This document shows positions 1,903 to 30,300 of a DNA stretch of 64,000 nt, one piece after another. The notes below the pieces were generated by a model that ran no database searches, was not told the DNA's origin, and saw only the letters and a program-made list of their open reading frames with translations. The stretch is taken from positions 11,156 to 75,155 of the IMG/VR virus record IMGVR_UViG_3300009136_000002. The stretch is one strand, 5' to 3'. The translations under genes and the position numbers were made by a program. This stretch comes from a virus. The stretch's first letter is position 1. Every line of letters begins with the position of its first letter.

Positions 1903-2295
1903 TCAACTCCGGCCTGATTCGGCCCCAGGCACATCGTCAATCCATTTGCCTTCTACTAGCTCTGTTCTTACTGAATCTCCGTCAAAATGCTGTGTGCTGG
2001 CCTCGATGAATCTGCACCGCCGACCATAGCTCCTGAACCTGTGCTTGCTCCCTGGCAAGATCCTGATCGAGTCACCTTCTCTTAACAGGCGATTCGTTAT
2101 GTTCCCTCTCTCGTCAACTGTGTCTAGCTCCAAGAGCCCTTCAATGACCAGGAAGGTTTCATCCTTGACCCGATGATAGTGAAACTTTCCCTTGCTCGAC
2201 CACAGACGAGCCTCACAGGTCAAGACCTTCATGCAGTACAGGTCATTGTTGGTCACGATGCGCTCGTGGCCCCAAGTTTTTGCCTCTACTCTCAT
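1903..2295 (-). CDS. Cupin-domain protein (sugar isomerase-like)
   Basis: K.WG.E start, cupin motif 1 FHYHRVKDETFLV and motif 2 GDSIRILPGSKHRF. Start placed at MRVEAK. Confidence 0.8.
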   Translation of the reverse strand: MRVEAKTWGHERIVTNNDLYCMKVLTCEARLWSSKGKFHYHRVKDETFLVIEGLLELDTVDERGNITNRLLREGDSIRILPGSKHRFRSYGRRCRFIEASTQHFDGDSVRTELVEGKWIDDVPGAESGRS

Positions 2296-2405
2296 GTGAA
2301 CACCAATTTCAGGACTCGTCCAGCTACGCAGTAGACATAGTAGAGCGCCAGGAAGTAGATAACGCCCTGGAGGAGCCAGATCCCAATGAAACCGCATTTA
2401 TCCAA
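2292..2405 (-). CDS. Small single-pass membrane protein (37 aa)
   Basis: TTG start after GGGAGA; MDKCGFIGIWLLQGVIYFLALYYVYCVAGRVLKLVFT*; stop overlaps the cupin ATG. Below the track size cutoff. Confidence 0.5.
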   Translation of the reverse strand: MDKCGFIGIWLLQGVIYFLALYYVYCVAGRVLKLVFT

Positions 2406-3810: not shown

Positions 3811-5421
3811 CTACCTGTTTGCTATGAAGTCTCCGATTATGGCTGGGGCGGCAGTATCAAAGCCAACTACGTCCATCATCCCACCATCGGTAGGATCTGC
3901 GATGGAAAACTCGTTGCTTGCCAGCCCAACGACGACTAGCTTGGCCGGAATATCCATCTTCCGGCGGTAGTCCTCAAGCGCCTGAACCGGATGAACCTTC
4001 CCAGCCCAGGTTTCATTATCGGTGTAGATCACGAAGGCATCGGCCTCGACCTTATTCTTCAAGGCCCAAAGCATAGGCAAGGCGCAATCAGTCCCGCCAA
4101 AGGGCATCCCCTGGCAATGCTTAATCACATCGTCAAGCCTCTGATGCCTGGACATATTGATCTTGCGAAGCTCATGGGAGAAAGCCATGACCGCGCATTT
4201 CTCCTCGGTCTTGAATGTGACCATAGCCATCGCGCAAGCTCCGTCACGAGGAGTAAGGTAGGGCATCCCATTGATCCCTTCCCAATCCATAGAGCTAGAA
4301 ACGTCCAGGCCGATCACAATCCGCTTACCTGTGGGCTCAACATTTTCAAATGTCTTGTAGAATCCTGCATCCAGGGCATCCACAATATCCGGCACGGCAT
4401 CCCAATCACCCTTTCCCAGGTAGCCGCGACCTTCGCCATAGATTTTAAGCGCAGCCAGGACGTTAATCGGATGAATGCGGGCCTCTCGCAACTGATTGGG
4501 ACTAACGAGCCTGTCCCGAACCCTCTCAATTACGTCCCAATTCCCTGGAATCAAGAGGCCGACCTTACCCATGTTCCCCAGGTTCCGGATCATGGCGGTC
4601 ATAGGCATCCTCTGGAGCAAGGCCTCCCATACGTCCTTCTCAGTAAGGAAGTCAGTAGGGATTGCCTCTCGCGGCAGATTGTAAAGCTGAATGAAGTTGA
4701 CGATCTCATTCTTGTGCTTTGCTTTCTTGGCGTACTCGAATCCAGCCACGACATTCAGGGGGTGAGCCCCTCTCCATTTATCAGAGTTGGGAAGCTCAAG
4801 CTCCCCGCTCACGATCCATTTATACAGCGCATTCCTGTTTGCATCGTCGGTCTTGGGGTGAGACAGTCGGAGGAGATCCCTGTGGCTCCAGCCATCACGC
4901 TGCTGGTATTTCACGGCCTGATAAGCCAACTTCTCCACATCTTTGTCCTGATACCAATGCTTGACAGCATTGCGGAGTCCTCGACCCCACCCGCGAAAGG
5001 CCTTAACGTACTTGGCGAAATGGAACAGGTGCGTCCCGATCCGCGCTACCTTTGGCAGAGCGGCCAGGGCCATCGCTCGTGTCTCTTCATCACCCAGGCC
5101 AGCGCACATTGCCAGGACGAATAGGGCCGGATCATTCTTAGGGGCTCGTCCCTTAGTAGAAACGTCCACAACAGCACCGACAACTTTAGGGCCAGCCTTC
5201 TCGATCAAACGAGCAACGGCCTTTGCGCTGTCGATGGTTAGCTTGCGCTCTTTGATGTAGTAGGTTCCGCCTTCCGTTCCCAGCATCAGAAAGCGCATAA
5301 GCCGCTCTCCATCACCTACTGGAAACACATACCCACCCGCGCTATCCCTTATCATCTGCTTGCCAGGAATCGGCTCGGTCTGTGGGGTTTCCTTTGTCTG
5401 AAAATGCTTGGTGTAGTCCAT
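3811..5421 (-). CDS. rsr: Ro60 orthologue (Rsr), TROVE plus vWA domains
   Basis: N-terminal DSAGGYVF, LMRFLMLGTEGGTYY, GWGRGLR, KYQQRDGWSHRDLLRLSHPK, MPMTAMIRNL; vWA MIDAS DVSSSM, GGTDC and YTDNETW. Confidence 0.97.
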   Translation of the reverse strand: MDYTKHFQTKETPQTEPIPGKQMIRDSAGGYVFPVGDGERLMRFLMLGTEGGTYYIKERKLTIDSAKAVARLIEKAGPKVVGAVVDVSTKGRAPKNDPALFVLAMCAGLGDEETRAMALAALPKVARIGTHLFHFAKYVKAFRGWGRGLRNAVKHWYQDKDVEKLAYQAVKYQQRDGWSHRDLLRLSHPKTDDANRNALYKWIVSGELELPNSDKWRGAHPLNVVAGFEYAKKAKHKNEIVNFIQLYNLPREAIPTDFLTEKDVWEALLQRMPMTAMIRNLGNMGKVGLLIPGNWDVIERVRDRLVSPNQLREARIHPINVLAALKIYGEGRGYLGKGDWDAVPDIVDALDAGFYKTFENVEPTGKRIVIGLDVSSSMDWEGINGMPYLTPRDGACAMAMVTFKTEEKCAVMAFSHELRKINMSRHQRLDDVIKHCQGMPFGGTDCALPMLWALKNKVEADAFVIYTDNETWAGKVHPVQALEDYRRKMDIPAKLVVVGLASNEFSIADPTDGGMMDVVGFDTAAPAIIGDFIANR

Positions 5422-5445: not shown

Positions 5446-5513
5446 GGGGCAAGGAGTGAGTAAGGGATCGTTTTCAATTAGCAGTTGAATGATAACCCTA
5501 GCTCTTCGGCCCC
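5446..5513 (-). ncRNA. Mini Y-RNA-like unit E (68 nt) with Ser(GCU) anticodon stem-loop
   Basis: GGGGCCGAAGAGCUAGGGUUAUC-A-UUCAA-CUGCUAA-UUGAA-AACG-AUCCCUUACUCACUCCUUGCCCC; the ends pair into a Ro stem. Confidence 0.8.
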
Positions 5514-5524
5514 TGGTTAAAAGT

Positions 5525-5583
5525 CGGGCAAGTAGCGAACCAGCAGCTTTTCCTGATTAGGGTAACGCTGGCTCTTCGGCCCG
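5525..5583 (-). ncRNA. Mini Y-RNA-like unit D (59 nt)
   Basis: CGGGCCGAAGAGCCAGCGUUACC...UGCUGGUUCGCUACUUGCCCG; the upper stem differs from other units but keeps pairing. Confidence 0.8.
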
Positions 5584-5594
5584 TATAAAACTGA

Positions 5595-5703
5595 GTGGGC
5601 GAGTAGCGTCAAGGGATTGACCCCACCCTCGCGGGTGGCAGACCCTTTGTTGCTTAGGGGGTCTGTTAGGACTCGAACCTGATAACCCTTAACTTCGGCC
5701 CAC
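5595..5703 (-). ncRNA. YrlA-like Y RNA, unit C (109 nt)
   Basis: Ro stem GUGGGCCGAAGUUAAGGGUUAUC / AUCCCUUGACGCUACUCGCCCAC encloses a T-loop hairpin AGG-UUCGAGU-CCU, a closed stem CAGACCC/GGGUCUG and a hairpin CCACCC-GCGA-GGGUGG. Confidence 0.8.
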
Positions 5704-5715
5704 GCATTTTCGAGT

Positions 5716-5845
5716 TGGGGAGAGTGGTGGGACTCGAACCCACGGCCTCGCCATTTGCATTGGATAACCCTTAGCCATCGACCCGCAAGCGGGTAAGGAG
5801 CGGAAAGGGAATTTTCGCGCTCTAACCGACTGAGCTACACTCTCC
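5716..5845 (-). ncRNA. tRNA/Y-RNA chimera, unit B (130 nt): full cloverleaf, GCA anticodon, G-1:C73, encoded CCA, 52-nt Ro hairpin inserted between nt 28 and 29
   Basis: Acceptor GAGAGUG/CACUCUC, D arm GCUC-AGUCGGUUA-GAGC, anticodon arm CG[insert]CCA-AUGCAAA-UGGCG, variable loop AGGCC, T arm GUGGG-UUCGAGU-CCCAC. The insert (5764-5815) contains CCUUACCCGC-UU-GCGGGUCGAUGGCUAAGGGUUAU. Confidence 0.85.
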
Positions 5846-5850
5846 ATAGT

Positions 5851-5917
5851 TGGGCTAGGAATCATAGGACGGATTGGGGCAGGCGCGGCCTGCAGATAAC
5901 CATCCTACTTCGGCCCA
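5851..5917 (-). ncRNA. Mini Y-RNA-like unit A (67 nt)
   Basis: Begins immediately after the recT stop: UGGGCCGAAGUAGGAUGGUUAUC-U-GCAGGC-CGC-GCCUGC...CCGUCCUAUGAUUCCUAGCCCA. Confidence 0.8.
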
Positions 5918-7297
5918 TTACTCTTGTTCTTGTGATACTCCAAAGGTTGTGAATTCCGTGTCAGGATCGGTAGCAAAGCAATGTGAGAAATAGCCTGTGT
6001 ACCGTCCCATATACATTCGCTTAGTTAAAATGGCCCAATCGTGCCATGCTTTGAGCTGTATCCCAGCACCCTTGACAAACTTATCAATCTCCAGGGTGCG
6101 CTCGATGCTTGCCAACTGACCATCTAGTTCTTCCGGCGTTGCTTCTTCCGGCTCTTGCCCTGCGCCAAAGAGCGGCGGCTGTGCTGGTGGTTCAACTGGC
6201 GGCTCAACTGGCGGCTCAACTGGCGGCTCAACTGGCGGCTGCGGCGGTGGATCGACCATACTGAGCGGGCCTGTTGGTTCCGGCGATGCGAATGAAGGCC
6301 TCGGCCACGGTGTTCCCCAAAAGCGTTTGTGCTTGTCGTCCAATTCCTTGAGAACAGGGCTATCCGGCGGTAATAGGCCCAGCCGGACGATGTTCTCTTC
6401 TTTTGCGAGGAACGTGGTGAAGCCACTCGTTCTCAACCCGAAAAATTCTGCTATAAATTTTTCATCATCGGTTTCCGGTACAACTGGCGCTGGCGGTGGG
6501 GGCGGCACTATTGTATCAGCCAGCTTGTCCAGCCCTGTCTTTCCTGGTTCCTCGATAATCTCGCCTGTTTGTAAGTCAACGCCACTAATTACATCTAGTT
6601 GCTGATCTATCCCTGCCTCCGCTCTTTCGTCGAGACTCACGGCCAGGGACAGGGAATTGTCCACGACTGAGGACGGTAGGTACTTGACGCTGTGCCTAAT
6701 TGCTGTCTTTAAGGCCATTGCATCAAAGTCTGTTACCCAGGGGCCGGATCTTCCCGCTGGTGAGCGTTGCTGAACCGCCTTGATGTGGCTCATTGGGAGA
6801 ACCCTGAATTGAAACCCACCTTCCTTGTAAAATGCGATACAGTAAGCTGCTACCTGATCTCCGCGATCATGCTCCTCGTATGCTGGCTTGTGATGAATGT
6901 GGGGGTTAGATCCATGCTCGTAACTGAAACTATCTTTGGCATAGACTATGTGAGCCTCGATGTTCCGAAACTTGCCGGATCTCATAGCCAAGTCGATCAG
7001 ACCCATATACCCTGGGATAAACGTGACCTTCTTGGCAAAGGGAACCAAATGCGCCATATTTCTGACTCCATCCGGCTCCAGCCCCAACTGAGCGCACGTT
7101 AAGACCGCAGACAGTAAGCTCTGAGGCGTACAGTCCAGTAGCCCAGGCGTTAGCTGCACGGAGGTCATAACGATCCGGCTGAACCTGTCCACTCCGATCT
7201 GTTTTGGTAATGCAGCCGTGAGGGATTTTGAATGCTGATGGAGGAGCTGCTTTACCGATTGGATCTTGGTCTGTTGTGTCGTAAGTTGTCCGGTCAT
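5918..7297 (-). CDS. recT: RecT-family single-strand annealing protein with long Pro-rich C-terminal extension
   Basis: LLDCTPQSLLSAVLTCAQLGLEP, FIPGYMGLIDLAMRSG, SGPWVTDFDAMALKTAIR...KYLP. Start MTGQ at 7297 overlaps the yqaJ stop. Confidence 0.93.
   Translation of the reverse strand: MTGQLTTQQTKIQSVKQLLHQHSKSLTAALPKQIGVDRFSRIVMTSVQLTPGLLDCTPQSLLSAVLTCAQLGLEPDGVRNMAHLVPFAKKVTFIPGYMGLIDLAMRSGKFRNIEAHIVYAKDSFSYEHGSNPHIHHKPAYEEHDRGDQVAAYCIAFYKEGGFQFRVLPMSHIKAVQQRSPAGRSGPWVTDFDAMALKTAIRHSVKYLPSSVVDNSLSLAVSLDERAEAGIDQQLDVISGVDLQTGEIIEEPGKTGLDKLADTIVPPPPPAPVVPETDDEKFIAEFFGLRTSGFTTFLAKEENIVRLGLLPPDSPVLKELDDKHKRFWGTPWPRPSFASPEPTGPLSMVDPPPQPPVEPPVEPPVEPPVEPPAQPPLFGAGQEPEEATPEELDGQLASIERTLEIDKFVKGAGIQLKAWHDWAILTKRMYMGRYTGYFSHCFATDPDTEFTTFGVSQEQE
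6192..6239 (-). repeat. Four tandem 12-bp repeats encoding PPVE in RecT
   Basis: (TCAACTGGCGGC)x4 on the + strand. Confidence 0.9.
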
Positions 7298-8181
7298 GCC
7301 TTTCTCCTTAATGTTCTGACAGTTGCGGCATCTACCCAATATGCCTCTCTCTCATGGGCTACCCAGCTATACGTTACTCCGTTTGACAACACGCCGTAGC
7401 TTGCCAACTCTAGCTTGGACTTGATCTTGTTCTCCAGGGCTGTCTTTTCCTTTCTGAGCTGCTTTTCCTTCGCTTTGATCTCTTGTAAGTCCTCATCCCA
7501 CCAAAGAGCCTCCCCAGGTAGCGGAATGGATTCTCCGCTATCTTTGGGGTACTGGAAATGAAGGGCTTCTTTTGATGAATCTGAGTCGTCTACCGGAGGA
7601 GGATCTTGATTCTGAATTCGCTGCCAAAACTTGCCCTCTTCCTCGATAAGAATTTCCACAAAGCGGTCATTGCGTTGAACATCAACGATAAGATCGCTGT
7701 AGTCACCGAAGAATACAGCCAATGATCCCCACTCACTCCCTGTGACCGCCATTTCATGTTGGATCTGAACCTGATAATAAAGCGGTGGCTCCTCAAGCCA
7801 ATTACTCTTCATTCCAGGCCCACCAGTTTTGATCTGCAAGACCCCCTGGCCTCGATCATCAAAGGGCTCGATCAGGCGGTCTATGGTTGCCATCATAAAT
7901 TCATGCTCTGGATGCTGGTATATCGTAAAGTTGTCCGGCTTTATCGTGTCCCTACCAGTTTCCCTCTCGTAGTAGGCTGCAACTGCATCTTCGAGATCCA
8001 GACCCCATTGCATTCGCTGGTTCATTTCCTGCTCTGGCATCATCTTCAACTTGCGAAGATACAGCGATAGAGGGGATACCCAGGGGGAGATCCCCAAGAC
8101 CGCCGCAGCCTCAGACCCGCCGATCCCACCCATCCGAGCCTCAAGCCATTCGTCACGATTTTTATGAGATTTCCATTTCAT
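7294..8181 (-). CDS. YqaJ/lambda-exonuclease-like recombination nuclease
   Basis: WLEAR..GIGGSEAAAVLG.SPW, G..LE, ATIDR, LQIKT (EIK variant), YYQVQIQHEM.VTG. Confidence 0.92.
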   Translation of the reverse strand: MKWKSHKNRDEWLEARMGGIGGSEAAAVLGISPWVSPLSLYLRKLKMMPEQEMNQRMQWGLDLEDAVAAYYERETGRDTIKPDNFTIYQHPEHEFMMATIDRLIEPFDDRGQGVLQIKTGGPGMKSNWLEEPPLYYQVQIQHEMAVTGSEWGSLAVFFGDYSDLIVDVQRNDRFVEILIEEEGKFWQRIQNQDPPPVDDSDSSKEALHFQYPKDSGESIPLPGEALWWDEDLQEIKAKEKQLRKEKTALENKIKSKLELASYGVLSNGVTYSWVAHEREAYWVDAATVRTLRRKA

Positions 8182-20857: not shown

Positions 20858-21312
20858 TGGGCGTAACTAACCCGAATTACCCGACGATGGAGATCGCCCT
20901 GGCGATGGTTAATGCGCCGGATAACGCCGATGGCACAGAGCGCATGAAAAAAGGCGATATTATTGCCATTCGCAAACCAGCAGATTTCATAGGATCGCAA
21001 GAAGGCAAAATCTTTCTCTGGCTACATATTGATGGGCCAGAAGAAAATGAATTTGCTGCCTTTGCTCAACAGGTCTTTGAACCTACTGATCCTGAAACTG
21101 GCGAAAGATTCGACAAGCGAAGATACGAAGTTCCCCTCGGACGCTTACAGGTTCTATATCCCGCGTTTAATCAATCAAGAGCAACAGATCCAAATGATTT
21201 TTATCAACCATTCTTGCTCATTGACAGCGAAGATTTTGAAATTGTTGCTGCAGATCCACCATACGCAGTTAGCGGCCTAGTCTTTGATAAGGCCATAGGA
21301 GATTATCTCTAA
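20857..21312 (+). CDS. Hypothetical protein coupled to the giant Ser-rich gene
   Basis: 151 aa, TAATG overlaps at both ends. Confidence 0.75.
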   Translation: MGVTNPNYPTMEIALAMVNAPDNADGTERMKKGDIIAIRKPADFIGSQEGKIFLWLHIDGPEENEFAAFAQQVFEPTDPETGERFDKRRYEVPLGRLQVLYPAFNQSRATDPNDFYQPFLLIDSEDFEIVAADPPYAVSGLVFDKAIGDYL

Positions 21313-24300
21313 TGGCTACCTCAAGACGAGCTGCCACAAATGAGAATATCAGTACCTACGATAGCGGGGGTGGACAGGACTACTCAGCCCTTGCTACCTG
21401 GGAAGCTGCAACTGATATTGATCTCGTTACCGCTACTCAGTCTGAGGTCTTAGAGTGCTACGCTGGCTCTCACGATGATGAAGTTGTCATTGATGGCGCG
21501 ACTACGAATACTTCGTATTTCAGGATAATCCGTCCGGCCTCTGGAGAGGGTCACGATGGCTACCCCCACCAGGACGGATCAGCCGCTTATTTTGTCACTA
21601 CAACAAGCAACATAGATATGTTCTCTGTGGTTGAGGCTAACTGCCAACTTCAAGACTTGATAATGAGCCTCGATCAAGATGGTGGTAGTGCCTATTGCGC
21701 TGCCCTAGTAGGTAACAATCAGTATTTAATCGGCTGTCTAGCCATCAATCCGGTCAACATTGGCGGTGATTCTAAGGGTTTTAGAGAGAATGGCGGCAGC
21801 GGCGATACGATGTATTACATCAACAGTATCGCCATAGGCTGTGACGATGCTGCCTTTCAGTTCGATGCAGGAACAAGCTACGTCTATAACTGCCATGCCA
21901 TTGATTCAGGTGAAGGATTCAATGAGAGTGGCGGTACGGTAATCTGTAAAAACTGCCTGGGTAATGGCACTACCGGATCGCAGGACTTTGATGGCTCTTA
22001 TGATGCTGCGAGTGAATATAACTCATCAGGCGATGGCTCGGCCCCAGGTACAAACAGCCGGATCAATCAAACCTTTGCTTTCTCCGATGCTGGCAATGAT
22101 GATTTCCGGTTAGGCTACACCGATGGTGGCGCTAGGAATTTTGGTACTGATCTGAGCGCAGATGGCAATTTCGCTTTCGACGATGATATTGCTGATGGCG
22201 TTATGGGCGCGGGCAAAGCAGGAATAACACGCCCACAAGAATCAGTATGGGATATAGGCTTTCACGAGCGCACGGAAAGCTCTTCCAGCTCAAGTTCTTC
22301 ATCCTGCTCTAGTAGTTTTTCATCCAGTTCCTTCTCATCTTGCTCATCCAGTTTTTCTAGCTCAAGCTCATGCTCCTCGTCGTCCTTTTCTTCGTCCTCT
22401 TCCAGTTTCTCATCGTCCTGCAGTAGTTCATCGAGCAGTTTTTCATCTTCATCTAGCTGTTCTAGTTCGTCTTTTTCGAGTTCGAGTTCGAGTTCGTCAA
22501 GCAGCTTTTCCTCTAGTTCAAGTTCCTGTTCTAGCTCGTTTTCTTCAAGCTCTTCCTGTTCATCAAGCAGCTTTTCGTCCTCTTGTTCGTCGAGTTCTTC
22601 ATTTTCTAGCTCATCCTCTTCTTCACCTTCATGCGTTCCACCGGATTGGCGCTGGGTTGATGGTTCTCAGCTAATTGTCGGCACGATAAATACTGGCGTT
22701 TTCTGTGATACCCATGCCTGTGATCTTACTGAGTATGTAATCAATGAGCTTTCAGGTGTGGGTATTCCAGCTTTCGATCAAAGATTCACCTTTGAAAATG
22801 TACCAAAATCAACCCTTGATGTATCCATAACTGGCTACTACAGCGGCAATCCCGCTCATATCGTCAAAATAGCGATCTTTAATTACCAAACGCTCTTGTG
22901 GGATGATATGACAGGCGCAGCCCAGGACTTTCCATCACAGGCTACGCCTTCTAACTATGTATTTCCGCTCACAGGCGCGGGAACACCGTCTGATTATGTG
23001 AGTGTTGGCAATCAGCTATCAATTAAGATCGACCATCGCTCTAACGGATCAGCCGGACACACATTCCACATGGATTGTGTGCATCTGACCGATACCAGCT
23101 CTTCTAGCTCAAGTTCGTCAAGCTGCTCATCTTCCTTCTCCAGCTCATCGAGTTCATTTAGCTCTTCTTGCTCGTCAAGTTGCAGTTCGTCATTTTCATC
23201 TTCGTCAAGCTGCTCGTCCTCTTGTTCTTCAAGTTTTTCAAGTTCTAGCAGCTCTTTTTCATCGTCCTGTTCGTCGTCGAGTTTTAGCAGCTCATCGAGC
23301 TGCAGTAGCTCGTTTTCGTCCTCGTCGTCGAGCTGCAGTAGCTCATCTTTTTCGAGTTCATCATGCTCAAGCAGCTTTTCCAGTTCGAGTTCGTGCAGCT
23401 CGTCATTTTCGTCGTCCTCGTCCTCATCCTTCTCCAGCAGTTCGAGCTGTTCTTCGAGTTTTTCTTCTTCTAGCTCATGCTCGTCGAGCTTTTCATCAAG
23501 CTCATCATGCTCGTCGTCGAGCTTTTCATCTAGTTGTTCGTCCTGTTCTTCGAGCTTTTCATCATGCTCTAGCTCTTCTTCATCTTCATTAGAATGTGGA
23601 CAATGGATTGCTTACTTTGACGATTCAAGGTGGAACCCTGGGGGCATTGTTGCCCCACCATTTGCCTGTACCTGGGATTCAGTAAATTGGGAATGGGATT
23701 CTGATCTATATAGCTCACAGCAATGGGCCTATTTAGAAACACAAGGCGCATGGCGGAGTGGATACAGGCCAAGCAAGTTTCGGATTACATTCACAGGCGG
23801 CTCTCCACTATATGCCTGTAATCTGAAAGATACTGCCGGAAATGTCATTGGCGGTACGAATTTCCCGACCAATTATTTCTCCGGTCAAGTTGAAGCAATT
23901 ACTTTTTCGACATTCGATCTTAGATTTTTGGAATTACAGCATAACGGCACAACTCAATTCCAAGTTACAAATATCGAATTCTTTACGGTATGTTCCTCTT
24001 CTAGCTCTTCGTCGAGTTCATTTAGCTCTTGTTCTTCATCATTTAGCTCTTCAAGTTCGAGTTTTTCATCATCGTCGTCTTGTTCATCGAGCTTTTCAAG
24101 TAGTAGCAGCTCATTTTCATCGAGTTCATCATGCTCATCGAGCTTTTCGAGTTCATCATCTTCGTTTTCGTCCTCGTCCTCTTCATTCTCATCGTCGAGT
24201 TCCAGCTACTCAAGTTCCTCATCCTCTTCTTTATCGTCCTCCTCTTCCTCTTCGTTTTCGAGCAGTTGCTCTTCATCCTGTTCGAGTTTTTCGAGTTCTA

Positions 24301-27300
24301 GCTTTTCATCATCGTCGTCCAGCTCCTCTTTTAGCTCAAGTAGCTCTTTTTCCAGTAGTTCTTCATCATCCAGCTCTTGTTCTTCCTCAAGCTCTTCTTT
24401 TAGCTCTTCTTGCTCAAGTAGCTCTTTTTCTTCATCTTCTAGCTCATCGAGCTTTAGTAGCTCGTCGTCCTGTTCGTCGTCGTCCTTTTCGAGTTCAAGC
24501 TCTTCGAGTTTTTCGTCAAGCAGTAGCTCACGGAGTTCGTCATGCTCATCGAGCTGTTCAAGCTCTTTTTCATCGTCCTCGTTCTCGTCCTCGTCCTCGT
24601 GTTCATCAAGCAGCCCATCATCCAGCTCTTCCTCCTTCTCGTCGTCTTGCTCATCGTCCTCTTTCTCTTCGAGTAGCTTCTCGTCGTCCTCTTCGAGCTT
24701 TTCTTCTTCTTCCTGTAGCTCCTCGTTCTCATCGAGTTCGTCATGCAGCTCAAGCTCATTTTCTTCTTCTTCGAGCTGTAGTTCGTCGTCTTTTAGCTCG
24801 TCAAGTTCGGTTTCATCTAGCTCGTCATTTTCTTCTTCATCTTCTTGCTCCAGTAGCTCATTTTCGTCGTCAAGTTCATCATTTAGCTCGTCGAGTTCCT
24901 TTTCATCTTCCTGTTCATCTTCGTCGTCATTTTCCAGCTCAAGCTCTTCGAGTTTCAGCTCTTCGAGTTCGAGCTTTAGCTCTTCAAGCTCAAGTTTTTC
25001 AAGCTCTTGCTCCTCAAGCTCCTTCTCGTCCAGTAGTAGCTGTTCTTCGTCGTTTTCATCCAGTTCTAGCTGTTCTTCGTCATTCTCGTCCAGTTGTAGC
25101 TCTTCGTTCTCTTTTTCAAGCTCCTCTTCGAGTAGTTCGTTTTCAAGCTCTTCATCCTGCTCAAGCTCCTCGTTTTCGAGTTCTAGCTCCTGCAGTAGCT
25201 CCTCTTTCTCGTCGTCCAGCTCATCCTTTTCAAGCTCTTCATCAGAGAGCCTATCGTCGTCCTGCTCGTCCAGTAGCTCTCTCTCTGGCTCGGTTTCATC
25301 TTCGTGTTCGTCCTCTTCGTCCAGCCAATCTAGCTCAAGCTCAGTTTCATCTTCCTCTTCATGCTGTAGCTCCGTATCCTCTTCAAGCTCCTCTTTCTCG
25401 TCCTCATCCAGCTCCTTCTCGTCCTCAAGCTCGGTAAGTTCTTCGAGTTCGTGTGACTCGGCCTTCTCGTCCAGCTCATGCTCATCTAGCTGCAGTAGCT
25501 CATCGGAAAGCAGCTCTTGTCTGTCGTCCTCTTGCTCGTCGTCCTCTAGTTGCAGCTCTTCCTCATCGGCTGACTGTGACTCTATACCTGTCTATGGGAA
25601 CAATGTCTTAGCTGTGTATCCTGATTGGATTTGGTACGACTTTGGTAGGGTAAAGGTCAATGAGGACAGCATTGAGCAAGTACACACGGATGCTAGAAGG
25701 TATGCTGGATTTGAATCACGCAAATTCGTTGCTGAATTCAGGGCTGGGGATCAAGATCCGCAAGGCATCGAACAGCGATTTCCGATAGGGAATCCGGCCT
25801 CTCTAGGCGTAACGAGAGTCTATCAACTCTCATTTTGGATCTATCCAGTTGATCGGACTAAGATCAGAGTAACCATCAAGCATGATGATGGGACTTTGAA
25901 TGTTCATAACTATCCTGGTCTTACTCCGAATACCTGGAATCTGGTAAGCGATCTGGTCAACATTCAGAATAACACCAATACCGTGATCGCGTGGCACTCC
26001 GGCGCTACGGAATCCGGTACTTGGTATCTCGATGAGTTGGCATTGCGCTGGCTGGTCTGCCCTGGATCTTCATCGTCCTCGGAATCATCCTGTTCGAGTT
26101 CGTCTTGCTCCTCTTCCAGCGAATCCTCATCCTCACTCAGCTCCTCATCCTCTTGTAGTAGCTGTAGCTCGTGTGATTCGCTCTTCTCGTCCTCTAGCTC
26201 ATCGTCGTCGTTCTCCAGCTCATCGTCGTCCTGTAGCTCTTCAAGTACCTGTTCCTCTTCATCTTTCTCCAGTTGCAGCTCCTCTTTCTCGTCCTGCAGC
26301 TCTTCGTTCTCTTCGTCGTCGTCGTCATTTAGCTCATCTTCGAGCTGCAGCTCTAGCTGTTCGTCCAGTTTCTCATCTTCGAGTTCATCTTTTAGCTCTA
26401 GCTCTTCATCTTTCAGTAGTTCTTGCTCCTCAAGCTCATCCAGTTTGAGCTTTAGCTCAAGTTGCTCGTCCTGTGATTCTGGCTTTTCTTCAAGCTCTTC
26501 TAGCTCTTCATTCTCAAGCTCGTCGAGCTGTTCATCGTCTTTTAGCAGTTGCTCCTCTTCCTACTCGTTCTCCAGTTCGAGTTCTTCATCCTGTGATTCA
26601 GCTTTCTCTTCCAGCTCTTCGTGTAGTAGCTCATCTTCATCGTCCAGCGAGAGTTTCCAGGTCTTACAGGGACAATACTTCTATCCTCAGAGCGATGAGG
26701 GTGGATATACGGTTACTCCTGTGGGATCTGGCTCTAGCATCGCAGATCGAGTGAATAATGGCATCTTCGGGCCTGGATTCTCACCTGGGCCGGATGATAC
26801 TAACGGATTCCAGGGCAGTAACGGTGCTTACGTTAGACTTAGACTTTCAAATCCAGTTTTCCAGGGAGAAGCGATAGAAGTTAGATGTACTGTAAGGGCG
26901 TTTACTTTCTTTGCTCCACCTGGACGAGTTGATGTAAGATTCGAGTCTAGCTTTGGTGTGTCACATGGCACACGCACAATATACACGATTACTACAGGTG
27001 TTCCGGCTGATTACACGGTAAGCTGGAGTCTTAATAAGACAGCCGCAGAGCTTACAGATGCACGGTTGAGGGTTGAGTGCCAAGATCCAAGCTGGAATGA
27101 TCGAGTTACTGAGCTTGAATTACAGGTCATTATTGAAGGCTCATCTTCCAGTTCATGCTCTTCGAGTTCATCTTGTGATTCGGCATTCTCATCCTCCAGC
27201 TCTTCATCTTCGCTGAGTTCGGTGTCGGTAAGCAGTTGCTCATCTTCCTGTGATTCAGCTTTCTCATCGTCAAGCTCGTCGTCCTCACAAAGCTCTGTAT

Positions 27301-30300
27301 CTATCTCATCTTCTTCATCCAGTTACTCTAGCTCTTGCAGTTCCTCTAGCTCTTGCGATTCGGCATTCTCATCTTCATCTAGCAGCTCATCGTTCTCCAG
27401 CTCTTCATCCTCGTTCTCAAGCTCGTCGTCCTGTAGCTCGTCGTCGAGCTGCAGTTCTTGTGATTCAGCCTTCTCCTCTAGTTGCTCGTCGTCGTCATTC
27501 AGCTCGTCGAGTTCCAGCTCCTCTAGCTGTTCATCGAGCTTTAGCTCTTGCTCTTCATCGTCCTGCAGTAGCTCGTTCTCTTCATCTTCGTGTTCGAGCT
27601 GTGATTCAGCCTTCTCAAGCTCATGTTCGAGTTCAAGCTCCTCGTTCTCATCGAGCTGTTCATCGAGCTTTAGCAGTTCTAGCCCATCATTATCGTTCTC
27701 ATCCTGTAGCTCTTGCAGCTCATGTGATTCGGCTTTCTCATCGTCCAGCTCGTCGAGCTTTTCATCTTCGTCCAGCTCCTTCTCCTCCTCGTGTTCTAGC
27801 TCTTTTAGCTCAAGCTCATCTTCAAGCTGTTCATCGTCAAGTTTTTCATCGAGTTCTTGTAGCTCGTCATTTTCGTCAAGCTCAAGCTGCTCATCGTCAA
27901 GCAGCTCTTTTTCCTCGTCGAGTTCGTCTTTCTCAAGCTCGTCGTCGAGCTTTAGTTCAAGCTGTAGCAGCTCTTTCAGCTCTTCGAGTTCTTCATTCTC
28001 GTCGAGTTCAAGCTCTTTCAGCTCAAGCTGTAGCAGTAGCTCTTTCTCATCGTCGTCGTCCTTCTCAAGCAGCTCATCGTCGTTCTCGTCGAGTTCGAGT
28101 TCGTCGAGCTTTAGCTCCAGTAGCAGTTTCTCATCGTCCAGCTCTTCGTTCTCGTCAAGCTCCTCGTGTTCAAGCTCTTCGTTCTCAAGTAGCTGTTCCT
28201 CTTCAAGCTCGTCCTTCTCGTCGTCGAGTAGCTGTTCGAGTTCCTTCTCGTCGTCCTCAAGCTCTTTCTCAAGCTCAAGCTCAAATTGCTCATCTTCGAG
28301 CTGTTCATCTTCATTCAGCTCGTCGTCTTTCAGCTCGTCGTCATCGCGCTCTTCCAGCTCAAGCTCATTCTCTTCGAGTTCTTCCTCTTTCAGTAGCTCG
28401 TCAAGCTGTTCGAGTTCTTTCAGCTCTTGCAGCTCCTCGTTCTCTTCGAGTTCTGAGAGTTTTAGCAGCTCTTCTTCCTCGCAGAGTTCAAGCTCATCTT
28501 GCTCTGCCGGACAATGGATCTCCCAATTCGGTGCGCCATCTACCTTTGGCTGTGGTTTAGGTTTTGGTACAACCAAATGGTCAACAACTGGCGGCAATAC
28601 TAGGCACGTTAATAGTTCACCTGATTACTTCGATGCTTGTGGCCCTGGCGGTTTTGGGCTGGCTGCTACTGGCGCATGGAAAACTGGCTACAGACCAACA
28701 AAAATCAGGGTCACGATTACAGGTGGTACTCTCTCTTGGACGCTATCAGACGGTAGTGGAGTGATTGCCTCTGCCAGTAATCAGATAGGTTCGCCAGCGG
28801 CAGAAGTTAATATCGGCGGTCAAGTTAGCGATATTGTTAGTTTCGGGCCAGCCGATGAGTTTACTGGATGGCACATAGAGGATATTGAATTCTTCGTCTG
28901 CTCAAGCTCAAGCAGCTCTTTCTCATCCTGTTCCTCTAGCGAATCGTCGAGTTCAAGCTCTTCATCCTTCTCTTCAAGCTCTAGCTCATTTTCGTCCAGT
29001 TCGAGTTCTTTCAGCAGCTCATCCTCATGCTCATCTTCCAGCGAATCATCTTCATCGTCGCCAGTTCCGTTCTTTACAGGCATAAATCCAGACGAAGATG
29101 TTGATATTACTGGCTGGACGCTTTCAGGTCAGGCTACAGCTTGGGAATGTACGGAGGATTTTAGTGCTGGAGATCCGGCGAGGAATGATGATTATGTCTA
29201 TGCTTTAGCAGCCAATACCATAAAGCTCGGTTTTGAGAATCCTTCGTATGCTGGCAATTCCTATTATGTGAGAGTGAAATTTAGTGCGGCCTCCGGCGGG
29301 TCACAGGGTAGCCTGGGAATGTCGCTCTATGACGGTGCTAGTCAAATAGGCAGCGAACAGATATTTGCTCCGCAGTTGCTACCTGGGACTTGGAGTGAAT
29401 TTGAATACAGTTTCGCAACGACTAAGACCGCTGCAGAGCTGAGTGATATGCGAGTATGGTTCCGGTGGATTAGTGGACTCTCGATCCTTGTCAGCTCGGT
29501 ACAGATAGACATTTCCCTGGCATCTTCTTCTTCGTCCTCATTGTCGGAAAGCTCAAGCTCAGAGTCGGTAAGCTCATGCTCAAGTTCACACTCATTAAGC
29601 TCCAGTTCGTCGTGTGAATCTGGAGCATGGGTAGATGTTTTCACTCCTGAGTGGGTTTGCTCCGCTAACTGCTCATATAATGCTACCTTGGATCAGTTTG
29701 AGGAAGCTGGCCCTGGTATGAGCATACGGGAAAGCGGTACTTGGAATGTGGGTTATCGCCCGATTAAAATCAGGGCTTACGGTCATACTCCTGGCGGTTG
29801 GGGCGAGTTGAATCTGAGAGATAATGTTGGCGGTGGAAACGTCATTGCGAATGATGATGGCGGTGGTAGTGGCTATGTCGCTGGTACTCCGGTTGATATT
29901 GATTGGTCATACGGCATTGATATGGCTAGGATTGATTCACCGTGGGATACCCTAACCAATGTCCAATTCTTCATTTGTGGTTCGAGTTCAAGTAGCTCAT
30001 TCTCATCCTGTAGCTCTAGCTTTAGCAGTTCCAGCTCTTCGTTCTCCAGTTCCAGCTCTAGCTCTTCATTCTCATCTTCCAGCTCTTCGTTCTCAAGCTC
30101 ATCTTCCTTCTCGTCTAGCTCATCTTTCTCATCAAGCAGCTCTTCATTCAGTTCCTCTTCGAGTGAAAGTCAGATTTTACAAAGCCAATTCATCCGGCCT
30201 GATGAAGATGTGAGTGCCAGCAACATTACTTTTGGCTCCGGTAGTTCTAGGTGGGATCGACTGAATGATGGAATTATTACCGGAACGCCTGACGACACAA

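What the first reader, a model, noticed from the sequence alone, without database searches (positions are those of the whole stretch)
5446..5513. Mini Y RNA displaying a perfect Ser(GCU) anticodon stem-loop, matching the phage's Ser/Cys-heavy codon load
Seen: the payload of unit E is UUCAA-CUGCUAA-UUGAA, a 5-bp stem with a 7-nt C32-U33-GCU-A37-A38 loop, placed just 3' of GUUAUC. The GCA loop of unit B sits in the same position. Unit D can weakly form UUACC-CUAAUCA-GGAAA. Also seen: the 3504-aa protein uses hundreds of AGY and many TGY codons, which are read by GCU and GCA anticodons. Known: host anticodon nucleases such as PrrC, RloC and VapC-type toxins cut specific tRNA loops. Inference: Ro-protected anticodon decoys may shield the tRNAs the phage most depends on. 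One 17-nt hairpin could be chance.
Basis: partly seen in the sequence, partly recalled or inferred. Interest (0 to 1): 0.8.

Follow-up and report, generated by a model that had tools for sequence, protein, structure and literature searches.

The report
Anticodon-arm mimic on phage Y RNA
A 68-base RNA gene just upstream of a phage's Ro60 (Rsr) gene joins the usual Ro60-docking handle to a faithful copy of a tRNA anticodon hairpin, a design that recurs in about a third of such RNAs in phages and bacteria, but it is not tied to this phage's serine-rich gene and its job is untested.

Summary
Minus strand 5513-5446 folds into a small Y RNA: terminal helix GGGGC/GCCCC, the Rsr motif GCCGAAG, the conserved UUAUC, then UUCAA-CUGCUAA-UUGAA. 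It is the last of five units between recT and rsr. The hairpin is not chance (about p 0.002 in this window). A phage with 76% identical Rsr keeps the loop exactly while two stem pairs change on both sides. In about 260 rsr loci, 75 of 211 handle-bearing units carry a 7-nt U33/R37 hairpin at this spot, against 9.9±2.8 in shuffles. The loop frame is C32-U33-NNN-A37-A38. Stems covary and the triplet varies freely. The caps are equally common in viral and cellular loci. The codon-load idea is not supported. AGY makes up only 31% of the Ser codons in the giant ORF (33% genome-wide). A 98%-identical relative lacks this unit. Two other phages with the same loop have ordinary serine content. Triplets include non-tRNA ones (A34, UCA, UUA). 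My best reading is an Rsr-bound bait or ligand for proteins that dock on anticodon loops; a role as nuclease decoy is plausible but untested. This scan has noted similar anticodon-arm RNAs before, on other phages with Ro60-like proteins.

The parts
5446..5513 (-). Unit E: 68-nt mini Y RNA, made of an Rsr handle and an anticodon-arm-like cap
   Evidence: Sequence. Fold -20.2 kcal/mol, z -2.65. Orthologous unit in L001 at 2585-2652.
5504..5510 (-). GCCGAAG, an instance of the GNCGAAN0-1G motif thought to be the Rsr contact
   Evidence: Motif defined in Chen et al. 2014 (PMC4201824). The handle regex hits 262 times on the rsr strand against 6 on the opposite strand across the loci.
5491..5498 (-). 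GGGUUAUC, containing the conserved YUAY that precedes the 'V' stem-loop of YrlA RNAs
5473..5489 (-). Anticodon-arm mimic UUCAA-CUGCUAA-UUGAA (loop 5484-5478, triplet GCU 5482-5480)
   Evidence: Loop identical with two compensatory stem pairs in L001. Same loop in genuine tRNA-Ser(GCU) genes.
5446..5450 (-). 3' strand GCCCC of the terminal helix, pairing with GGGGC at 5513-5509
5525..5583 (-). Unit D: mini Y RNA without an anticodon-like cap
   Evidence: Conserved in L301, where a D-like copy also replaces unit E.
5595..5703 (-). Unit C: YrlA-like Y RNA (T-arm, closed acceptor-like stem, D-like hairpin)
5716..5845 (-). Unit B: tRNA-order RNA with encoded CCA, a Y handle inserted in the anticodon stem, and the arm CCA-AUGCAAA-UGG
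   Evidence: Rfam tRNA hit of 46.9 bits with a 65-nt insert. GCA kept with a compensatory stem change in L301 and in L001.
5851..5917 (-). Unit A: mini Y RNA capped by a GC-rich hairpin
3811..5421 (-). rsr (Ro60 ortholog), 536 aa
   Evidence: Pfam vWA_Ro60 1.6e-67 and TROVE 2.7e-41. PHROG 850 RNA-binding protein.
5918..7339 (-). recT, directly upstream; the array fills the recT-rsr gap
   Evidence: Pfam RecT 8.3e-43. No promoter-like or terminator-like site between recT and rsr.

Best explanation
Unit E is a small (YrlB-class) Y RNA, a partner RNA of the phage's Ro60/Rsr protein. Its two ends pair, and that stem carries the Rsr-docking handle (GCCGAAG ... UUAUC). The tip is an imitation of a tRNA anticodon arm: 5 base pairs and the loop C32-U33-GCU-A37-A38. 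It is most likely transcribed with yqaJ-recT-[five Y units]-rsr, cut out of that precursor (the tRNA-like units B and C offer RNase P/Z sites) and held by Rsr. In the particle, the cap offers an anticodon-shaped loop to a protein that normally docks on tRNA anticodon loops. I commit to a bait or competitive-ligand role. In a phage the likeliest client is a host enzyme that cuts or modifies anticodon loops. The triplet is a swappable cassette feature and does not reflect the phage's codon usage. What is shown: the anatomy, the position next to rsr, conservation with compensatory changes, the family-wide enrichment of the loop frame, and the variable triplet. What is inferred: Rsr binding, processing, and any client protein. 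My odds that it is a Y RNA with an anticodon-arm mimic are about 0.9. My odds for the bait/ligand function are about 0.4, of which the nuclease bait specifically is about 0.25.
For: Rsr gene 25 nt downstream on the same strand. GNCGAAG motif, end-pairing stem and YUAY, as defined for bacterial Y RNAs. The handle regex hits 262 times on the rsr strand and 6 times on the other strand in about 260 loci. L001 (Rsr 76% identical) has UCUAA-CUGCUAA-UUAGA: the same loop with two pairs changed on both sides. 75 of 211 units have a 7-nt U33/R37 hairpin at this spot against 9.9+-2.8 in shuffles (maximum 17). The strict YU-NNN-AA form gives 48 against 0.64+-0.84. Loop length 7 occurs 50 times against about 7 expected, while other lengths sit at background. 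Loop composition is C32 60%, U33 72%, A37 68%, A38 80%, with positions 34-36 even. Real tRNAs in the same loci show the same frame. In an orthologous family the handle is nearly invariant, the cap stem covaries (pair 30-38: AU 14, GC 5, UA 5) and the triplet varies. The same cap occurs in cultured phages: Gordonia phage BearBQ has UCUC-CUGCUAA-GAGA, and the published ET08 YrlA has CUC-AUUGAAA-GAG. In the literature, Y RNAs are modular tethers or gates. Hughes et al. 2020 raised YrlA as a possible competitive inhibitor of an anticodon nuclease. Phage Ro60 binds upstream Y-like RNAs and host PNPase. A phage Ro60-like gene counters a defence system.
Against: The closest relative (Rsr 98% identical) lacks this unit, so it is dispensable. 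The triplet behaves as unconstrained: 12% of triplets have A34 against 2.7% in tRNAs (p = 6.5e-4), and UCA and UUA also occur. Precise mimicry of nuclease targets would not predict this. The caps are as frequent in cellular loci (35%) as in viral loci (39%), so a phage-specific anti-defence role cannot be the general one. The phage has no RtcB. A bait would have to compete with abundant tRNA.
Confidence: 0.4

Rival explanations
1. The cap is structural only. It is a leftover of the tRNA from which these Y RNAs arose, and it survives because a U-turn heptaloop is a stable way to close the helix. No partner reads it.
For: The triplet is hypervariable and includes non-tRNA triplets. The unit is absent from a 98% relative. 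Triplets do not match co-encoded tRNAs (3 of 39 against 5.6+-1.8). About two thirds of units carry other caps.
Against: The 7-nt length and C32/U33/A37/A38 are kept across very distant lineages (phage, Abditibacterium MAG, soil and peat families, actinophages), although tetraloops would be more stable and shorter. All other loop lengths sit at background.
Confidence: 0.25
2. The RNA is a tether for a generic effector. As in RYPER, the cap recruits PNPase, or else an RNA repair or modification enzyme, to Rsr. That partner reads the loop shape and not the triplet.
For: Known Y RNA loops bind PNPase KH/S1 domains, and phage phiLo Yrl1/Yrl2 bind host PNPase. A variable triplet with a fixed frame fits a partner that is blind to the triplet. 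The caps are also common in cellular loci.
Against: PNPase has no known preference for anticodon-like loops. There is no RtcB in this phage. Why five different units would be needed is unexplained.
Confidence: 0.2
3. One reading: a Ser(GCU) decoy (with the Cys(GCA) unit) that shields the very tRNAs the phage needs for its Ser/Cys-rich giant protein.
For: The giant ORF is 43% Ser and 4.3% Cys. The loop equals the genuine tRNA-Ser(GCU) loop. GCA is conserved in unit B in three phages.
Against: AGY is only 31% of the ORF's Ser codons. The 98% relative lacks the GCU unit. Phages G001 and G002 carry a CUGCUAA unit but have 5.9% and 6.6% Ser and no Ser-rich ORF. GCU is not significantly over-represented (4 of 75).
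Confidence: 0.05
4. A chance hairpin, or a decayed or functional tRNA gene.
For: Taken alone it is a single 17-nt hairpin.
Against: p is about 0.002 in the window. It is conserved with compensatory changes and enriched family-wide. It has no acceptor, D or T arm, and ARAGORN and Rfam find no tRNA here.
Confidence: 0.02

Closest known systems
Small hairpin Y RNAs of bacteria (S. Typhimurium and M. smegmatis YrlB, D. radiodurans Yrn2; Chen et al. 2014, PMC4201824)
   Same: A second, simple-hairpin Y RNA encoded beside rsr on the same strand. It carries the GNCGAAN0-1G motif and is processed from a common precursor with YrlA.
   Different: [quoted passage not shown] Here the tip is a 5-bp, 7-nt anticodon-arm copy, and there are five units in tandem.
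YrlA (Rfam RF02553; Chen 2014; structure in bioRxiv 10.1101/312249)
   Same: Same handle and the same conserved YUAY. Unit E's hairpin sits where YrlA RNAs have their 'V' stem-loop. The ET08 and BearBQ YrlA V loops are themselves anticodon-like.
   Different: Unit E has no T-arm, D-arm or acceptor-like stem. The Rfam YrlA model finds nothing in this phage. The literature states that YrlA lacks an anticodon loop and reads the V hairpin as a variable arm.
Thermus phage phiLo Ro60 with Yrl1/Yrl2 (PMC12135203)
   Same: A phage Ro60 with Y-like RNAs immediately upstream that carry a CGAA motif in a stem-bulge-stem.
   Different: No anticodon-like cap is reported there (the paper never uses the word 'anticodon'). 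It has two units, not five.
Phage tRNAs with altered anticodon loops that escape tRNA-cleaving defences (van den Berg et al. 2023, eLife, cited)
   Same: Phage-encoded RNAs whose anticodon loops matter in the contest over tRNA cleavage.
   Different: Those are complete, decoding tRNAs that replace cleaved host tRNAs. Unit E cannot decode and would act only as a ligand.
D. radiodurans Yrn1 'anticodon arm' (Chen 2014)
   Same: A Y RNA modelled with a 5-bp stem in the anticodon position.
   Different: Its loop has 6 nt and is not anticodon-like in sequence.

Membership tests
Bacterial/phage Y RNA (Rsr partner RNA, criteria of Chen et al. 2014) | Encoded within about 4 kb of rsr on the same strand | tested here: met
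   The unit ends 25 nt upstream of the rsr start codon on the same strand.
Bacterial/phage Y RNA (Rsr partner RNA, criteria of Chen et al. 2014) | GNCGAAN0-1G motif near the 5' end | tested here: met
   GCCGAAG at 5510-5504. Motif definition.
Bacterial/phage Y RNA (Rsr partner RNA, criteria of Chen et al. 2014) | 5' and 3' ends pair into a long stem that holds the binding site | tested here: met
   GGGGC/GCCCC plus inner helices in the MFE and centroid structures. The same helices covary or are kept in the related family.
Bacterial/phage Y RNA (Rsr partner RNA, criteria of Chen et al. 2014) | Physical binding to Rsr and accumulation as a discrete small RNA | not testable with these tools
YrlA (Rfam RF02553) | tRNA-like effector domain with T-arm, D-arm and acceptor-like stem | tested here: not met
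   There is no T or D arm in 5513-5446. Rfam finds no YrlA at E<=10 in the region and none in the genome.
tRNA (functional tRNA-Ser) | Cloverleaf with acceptor stem, D arm, T arm and a long variable arm | tested here: not met
   ARAGORN finds 0 genes. The only Rfam tRNA hit is unit B.
tRNA anticodon arm (what it mimics; not a membership claim) | 5-bp stem and a 7-nt loop with Y32, U33, purine 37 and A38 | tested here: met
   UUCAA-CUGCUAA-UUGAA. It is identical to the loop of 6 of 7 tRNA-Ser(GCU) genes in related loci.
Anticodon-nuclease decoy or anti-defence RNA | Binds, or is cut by, a tRNA anticodon nuclease and protects infection | not testable with these tools
   This needs biochemical and genetic assays. 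There is only indirect context.

The most novel reading that the evidence does not exclude
Rsr/Ro60 handles with exchangeable anticodon-arm caps form a programmable RNA bait system. In phages they would soak up or jam host anticodon-loop nucleases. In bacteria they would act as sentinels or buffers for the same enzymes. The 'V arm' of all YrlA RNAs would then really be a retained anticodon arm of a tRNA into whose anticodon stem the Ro60 handle was inserted.
Probability: 0.2. Interest if true: 0.85.

Novelty: new variant of a known kind. Interest (0 to 1): 0.6.

Why it matters
Y RNAs are known as tethers and gates for Ro60, but what most bacterial and phage Y RNAs recruit is unknown. About a third of them present an anticodon-shaped loop: fixed frame, free triplet, covarying stem. 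That gives a concrete and testable clue, namely that the client is something that docks on tRNA anticodon loops. It also suggests that the hairpin described as a 'variable arm' in YrlA is better read as an anticodon arm. If the client proves to be a tRNA-cutting defence enzyme, this would be an RNA-based counter-defence, and in bacteria a buffer or sensor, linked to the Ro60/RtcB tRNA-damage response. Cultured phages with the same feature make the experiments straightforward: Gordonia phage BearBQ, and the Mycobacterium phages ET08 and Farewell.

Tried and rejected
1. DNA similarity search of the array against 50,697 deposited phages found no match. 2. Rfam gave only the tRNA hit at unit B. 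No YrlA or Y_RNA match appeared, even at E<=10. 3. The loose pattern GCCGAAG-N4-8-GGTTATC in viral contigs returned mostly chance hits and was not used for statistics. The tighter CUGCUAA pattern gave 4 real loci and 1 chance hit inside a coding region, L299. 5. Two reviews (PMC10870794, PMC6047535) are not held. 6. A search for a homologue of the Ser-rich ORF in phages with the same loop found none; this is a weak negative, since only the first 600 aa were used. 7. I tested whether the Y triplets copy tRNAs encoded in the same locus; they do not. 8. I considered and rejected a functional tRNA or an intron-bearing tRNA for unit E, because it has no tRNA body. I also rejected kissing between the loops of units E and B, because GCU and GCA are not complementary. 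9. My handle regex requires CGA[AT], so it misses the actinophage variant GNCGGAG. Unit counts are therefore underestimates. 10. My first two regexes for the orthologous family were too strict and were corrected.

Full report
WHAT IS THERE. The window belongs to a 75,155-bp phage genome with no ARAGORN-detectable tRNA. On the minus strand the order is a YqaJ-like exonuclease gene, recT (5918-7339), a 500-nt non-coding gap, and then a 536-aa Ro60/Rsr ortholog at 3811-5421 (Pfam vWA_Ro60 1.6e-67, TROVE 2.7e-41). Five tandem units fill the gap. Each has a GNCGAAG-type motif followed by GGUUAUC-like sequence. Unit A is a mini unit with a GC-rich cap. Unit B is a tRNA-order RNA with an encoded CCA and a 65-nt insert (Rfam tRNA 46.9 bits). 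Unit C is YrlA-like. Unit D is a mini unit. Unit E is the flagged stretch. No promoter-like or terminator-like site separates recT, the array and rsr. That fits a single precursor, as described for M. smegmatis YrlA and YrlB.

THE OBSERVATION. Unit E (5513-5446, minus strand) reads GGGGC-CGAAG-AGCUAGGG-UUAUC-A-UUCAA-CUGCUAA-UUGAA-AAC-GAUCCCUUACUCACUCCUU-GCCCC. RNAfold puts the 5-bp, 7-nt hairpin at the tip of an end-paired stem (-20.2 kcal/mol, z -2.65, 0 of 200 shuffles as good). Only six hairpins with 5 Watson-Crick pairs and a YU-NNN-RA loop occur in both strands of the 64-kb window. One sitting right behind a handle therefore has a chance of roughly 0.002. The loop CUGCUAA is the loop of genuine tRNA-Ser(GCU) genes in related loci (6 of 7). 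Unit B carries CCA-AUGCAAA-UGG in the same position. The unit D 'anticodon-like' hairpin is not convincing.

CONSERVATION. L001 is a viral contig with 76% identical Rsr, and it has four units. Its first unit is the orthologue of unit E. The handle is about 85% alike and the cap is UCUAA-CUGCUAA-UUAGA, so the loop is unchanged and two stem pairs changed on both sides. L301 (Rsr 98% identical) keeps units A to D at about 90% identity. Its unit B arm is CCU-CUGCAAA-AGG: GCA is kept and the stem is compensated. However, L301 has a second D-like unit where unit E sits here. The units therefore behave as cassettes that move or are replaced, and the GCU unit is dispensable.

FAMILY-WIDE TEST. I collected about 260 rsr loci: viral, one genome per species, and metagenomic. 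The handle pattern G.CGA[AT].{0,1}G...G[GT]TTA[CT]C occurs 262 times on the rsr strand and 6 times on the other strand, giving 211 distinct units. Directly behind the handle, 75 units have a hairpin with a 7-nt loop, U at position 33 and a purine at 37. Shuffled payloads give 9.9+-2.8 (maximum 17). In the first 140 units, random positions gave 8.7+-3.2. The strict YU-NNN-AA form gives 48 against 0.64+-0.84. Among the strongest hairpins, loop length 7 occurs 50 times against about 7 expected, and all other lengths sit at background. Without imposing any loop rule, the 7-nt loops are C32 60%, U33 72%, even at positions 34-36, A37 68% and A38 80%. The 708 real tRNAs in the same loci show the same frame. 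The caps occur in three architectures:
- mini units such as unit E (41 of 107);
- tRNA-order chimeras such as unit B;
- permuted YrlA forms, for example L296.
The caps are equally frequent in viral (39%), genomic (35%) and metagenomic (34%) units. Cultured phages have them too. Gordonia phage BearBQ YrlA has UCUC-CUGCUAA-GAGA. The published ET08 YrlA has CUC-AUUGAAA-GAG. A Streptomyces phage has CUGUGAA.

WHAT VARIES. One orthologous family has a mini unit about 125 nt upstream of rsr, and I aligned 25 to 32 sequences of it. The handle is almost invariant. The cap stem covaries: pair 30-38 is AU 14, GC 5, UA 5; pair 27-42 is UA 20, CG 3, UG 2; 97.7% of cells are paired against at most 45% when the partners are slid. 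The first two triplet positions are as variable as the flanking spacer, with triplets CGA, UCA, GUA, GUU, UGA, GAC, AUA, CAA, GAA, GCA and AUU. Across all caps, 12% of triplets begin with A, against 2.7% in real tRNAs (p = 6.5e-4). The stop-reading triplets UCA and UUA occur. Triplets match co-encoded tRNAs no more often than chance (3 of 39 against 5.6+-1.8). The loop frame is therefore selected, while the triplet is either free or diversifying. These data cannot separate those two.

THE CODON-LOAD IDEA. The 3504-aa ORF really is extraordinary, at 43% Ser with SSSSFSSSSC-type linkers. However, it uses all six Ser codons about evenly, and AGY is 31%. A mini Y RNA cannot decode. The 98% relative lacks the unit. 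Phages G001 (81% complete) and G002 carry a CUGCUAA unit but have 5.9% and 6.6% Ser, no Ser-rich ORF and no homologue of the giant ORF's first 600 aa. GCU is not significantly over-represented (4 of 75). With a CU..AA frame, most random triplets would spell some natural anticodon. 'Perfect Ser' alone therefore carries little weight.

COMPARISON WITH WHAT IS KNOWN. The GNCGAAN0-1G motif, the conserved YUAY, several Y RNAs upstream of rsr and a 'V' stem-loop after YUAY are all described (Chen 2014). YrlA is stated to lack an anticodon loop. Phage Ro60 with upstream Yrl RNAs that bind PNPase is described. The idea that YrlA might competitively inhibit an anticodon nuclease has been raised. In the papers I could read, I did not find any statement that the V or apical hairpin has the anticodon-loop frame, or that mini Y RNAs carry only such an arm. 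In the tRNA-order chimeras a conserved CG...CG closes a 5-bp stem around the insert (window, L001, L301, L298). This suggests that the handle is an insertion in the anticodon stem and that the 'V arm' is the anticodon arm. That is an inference from sequence only.

EARLIER NOTES OF THIS SCAN. Similar 'anticodon-arm on a Ro60-partner handle' RNAs were reported on other phages that have Ro60-like (DUF2828) proteins and a different handle. tRNA-order Y RNAs were reported in cyanobacteria. My tests on canonical Rsr loci are independent of those notes and agree with them.

VERDICT. The feature is real. It is a new variant of a known kind, a Y RNA with an anticodon-arm mimic. Its function is unproven. 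The phage has no RtcB. My odds for function, which overlap in part, are:
- bait or ligand for an anticodon-loop-docking protein, about 0.4 (nuclease bait about 0.25 of that);
- generic tether, about 0.2;
- structural cap only, about 0.25;
- a shield specific to the Ser/Cys codon load, about 0.05.

Noticed in passing
window 5716-5845 (-): Unit B is a full tRNA cloverleaf with an extra 5' G opposite C73 (as in tRNA-His), an encoded CCA, and a closed Y handle inserted between nt 28 and 29 of the anticodon stem. The GCA triplet is kept in L001 and L301. In L301 the stem changes from CCA/UGG to CCU/AGG and position 32 changes from A to C.
   Followed up: partly
window 21312-31826 (+): A 3504-aa ORF with 43% Ser, 7% Phe and 4.3% Cys. 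Long SSSSFSSSSC-type linkers lie between globular segments, and all six Ser codons are used about evenly.
   Followed up: partly
L301:650-1240 (+): In the near-identical phage (Rsr 98% identical) the fifth array unit is a duplicate-like copy of unit D instead of the GCU unit. The array units are exchanged like cassettes between conserved handle sequences.
   Followed up: partly
about 260 rsr loci (L001-L019, L137-L295, L301-L380): ARAGORN finds 708 distinct tRNA genes in these short loci (120 loci hold about 6.5 each), so rsr is very often embedded in tRNA arrays. 92 of the 708 show C instead of U at position 33, which is unusual and which I did not check for mis-registration.
   Followed up: no
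L320-L380, about 60-20 nt upstream of rsr: A second conserved hairpin (GUGCCGGGAGUUGGCGGCAC-like) lies between the mini Y RNA and the rsr ribosome-binding site in the soil and peat family. It may be a leader or regulatory element.
   Followed up: no
L388 (Gordonia phage BearBQ), L389 (Mycobacterium phage Farewell), L390 (ET08), L391 (Streptomyces phage): Actinophage Y RNAs use the handle variant G-N-C-G-G-A (GGCCGGA, GGTCGGA) rather than GNCGAA, so my regex misses them. Their 'V' hairpins are anticodon-like (CUGCUAA, AUUGCAA, AUUGAAA, CUGUGAA).
   Followed up: partly
window 1903-2397 (-): A 164-aa ORF matches a PHROG annotated as cysteine dioxygenase (phrog_7851, 1.7e-18). It lies a few genes downstream of rsr.
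   Followed up: no
L298:8760-8840 (+): In another phage array a tRNA-like gene has an unusual T loop (GUGCAAG) and a long anticodon-region helix. The same CAGGUGCAAGUCCUG T-arm recurs in several Armatimonadota loci (L218, L220, L235).
   Followed up: no
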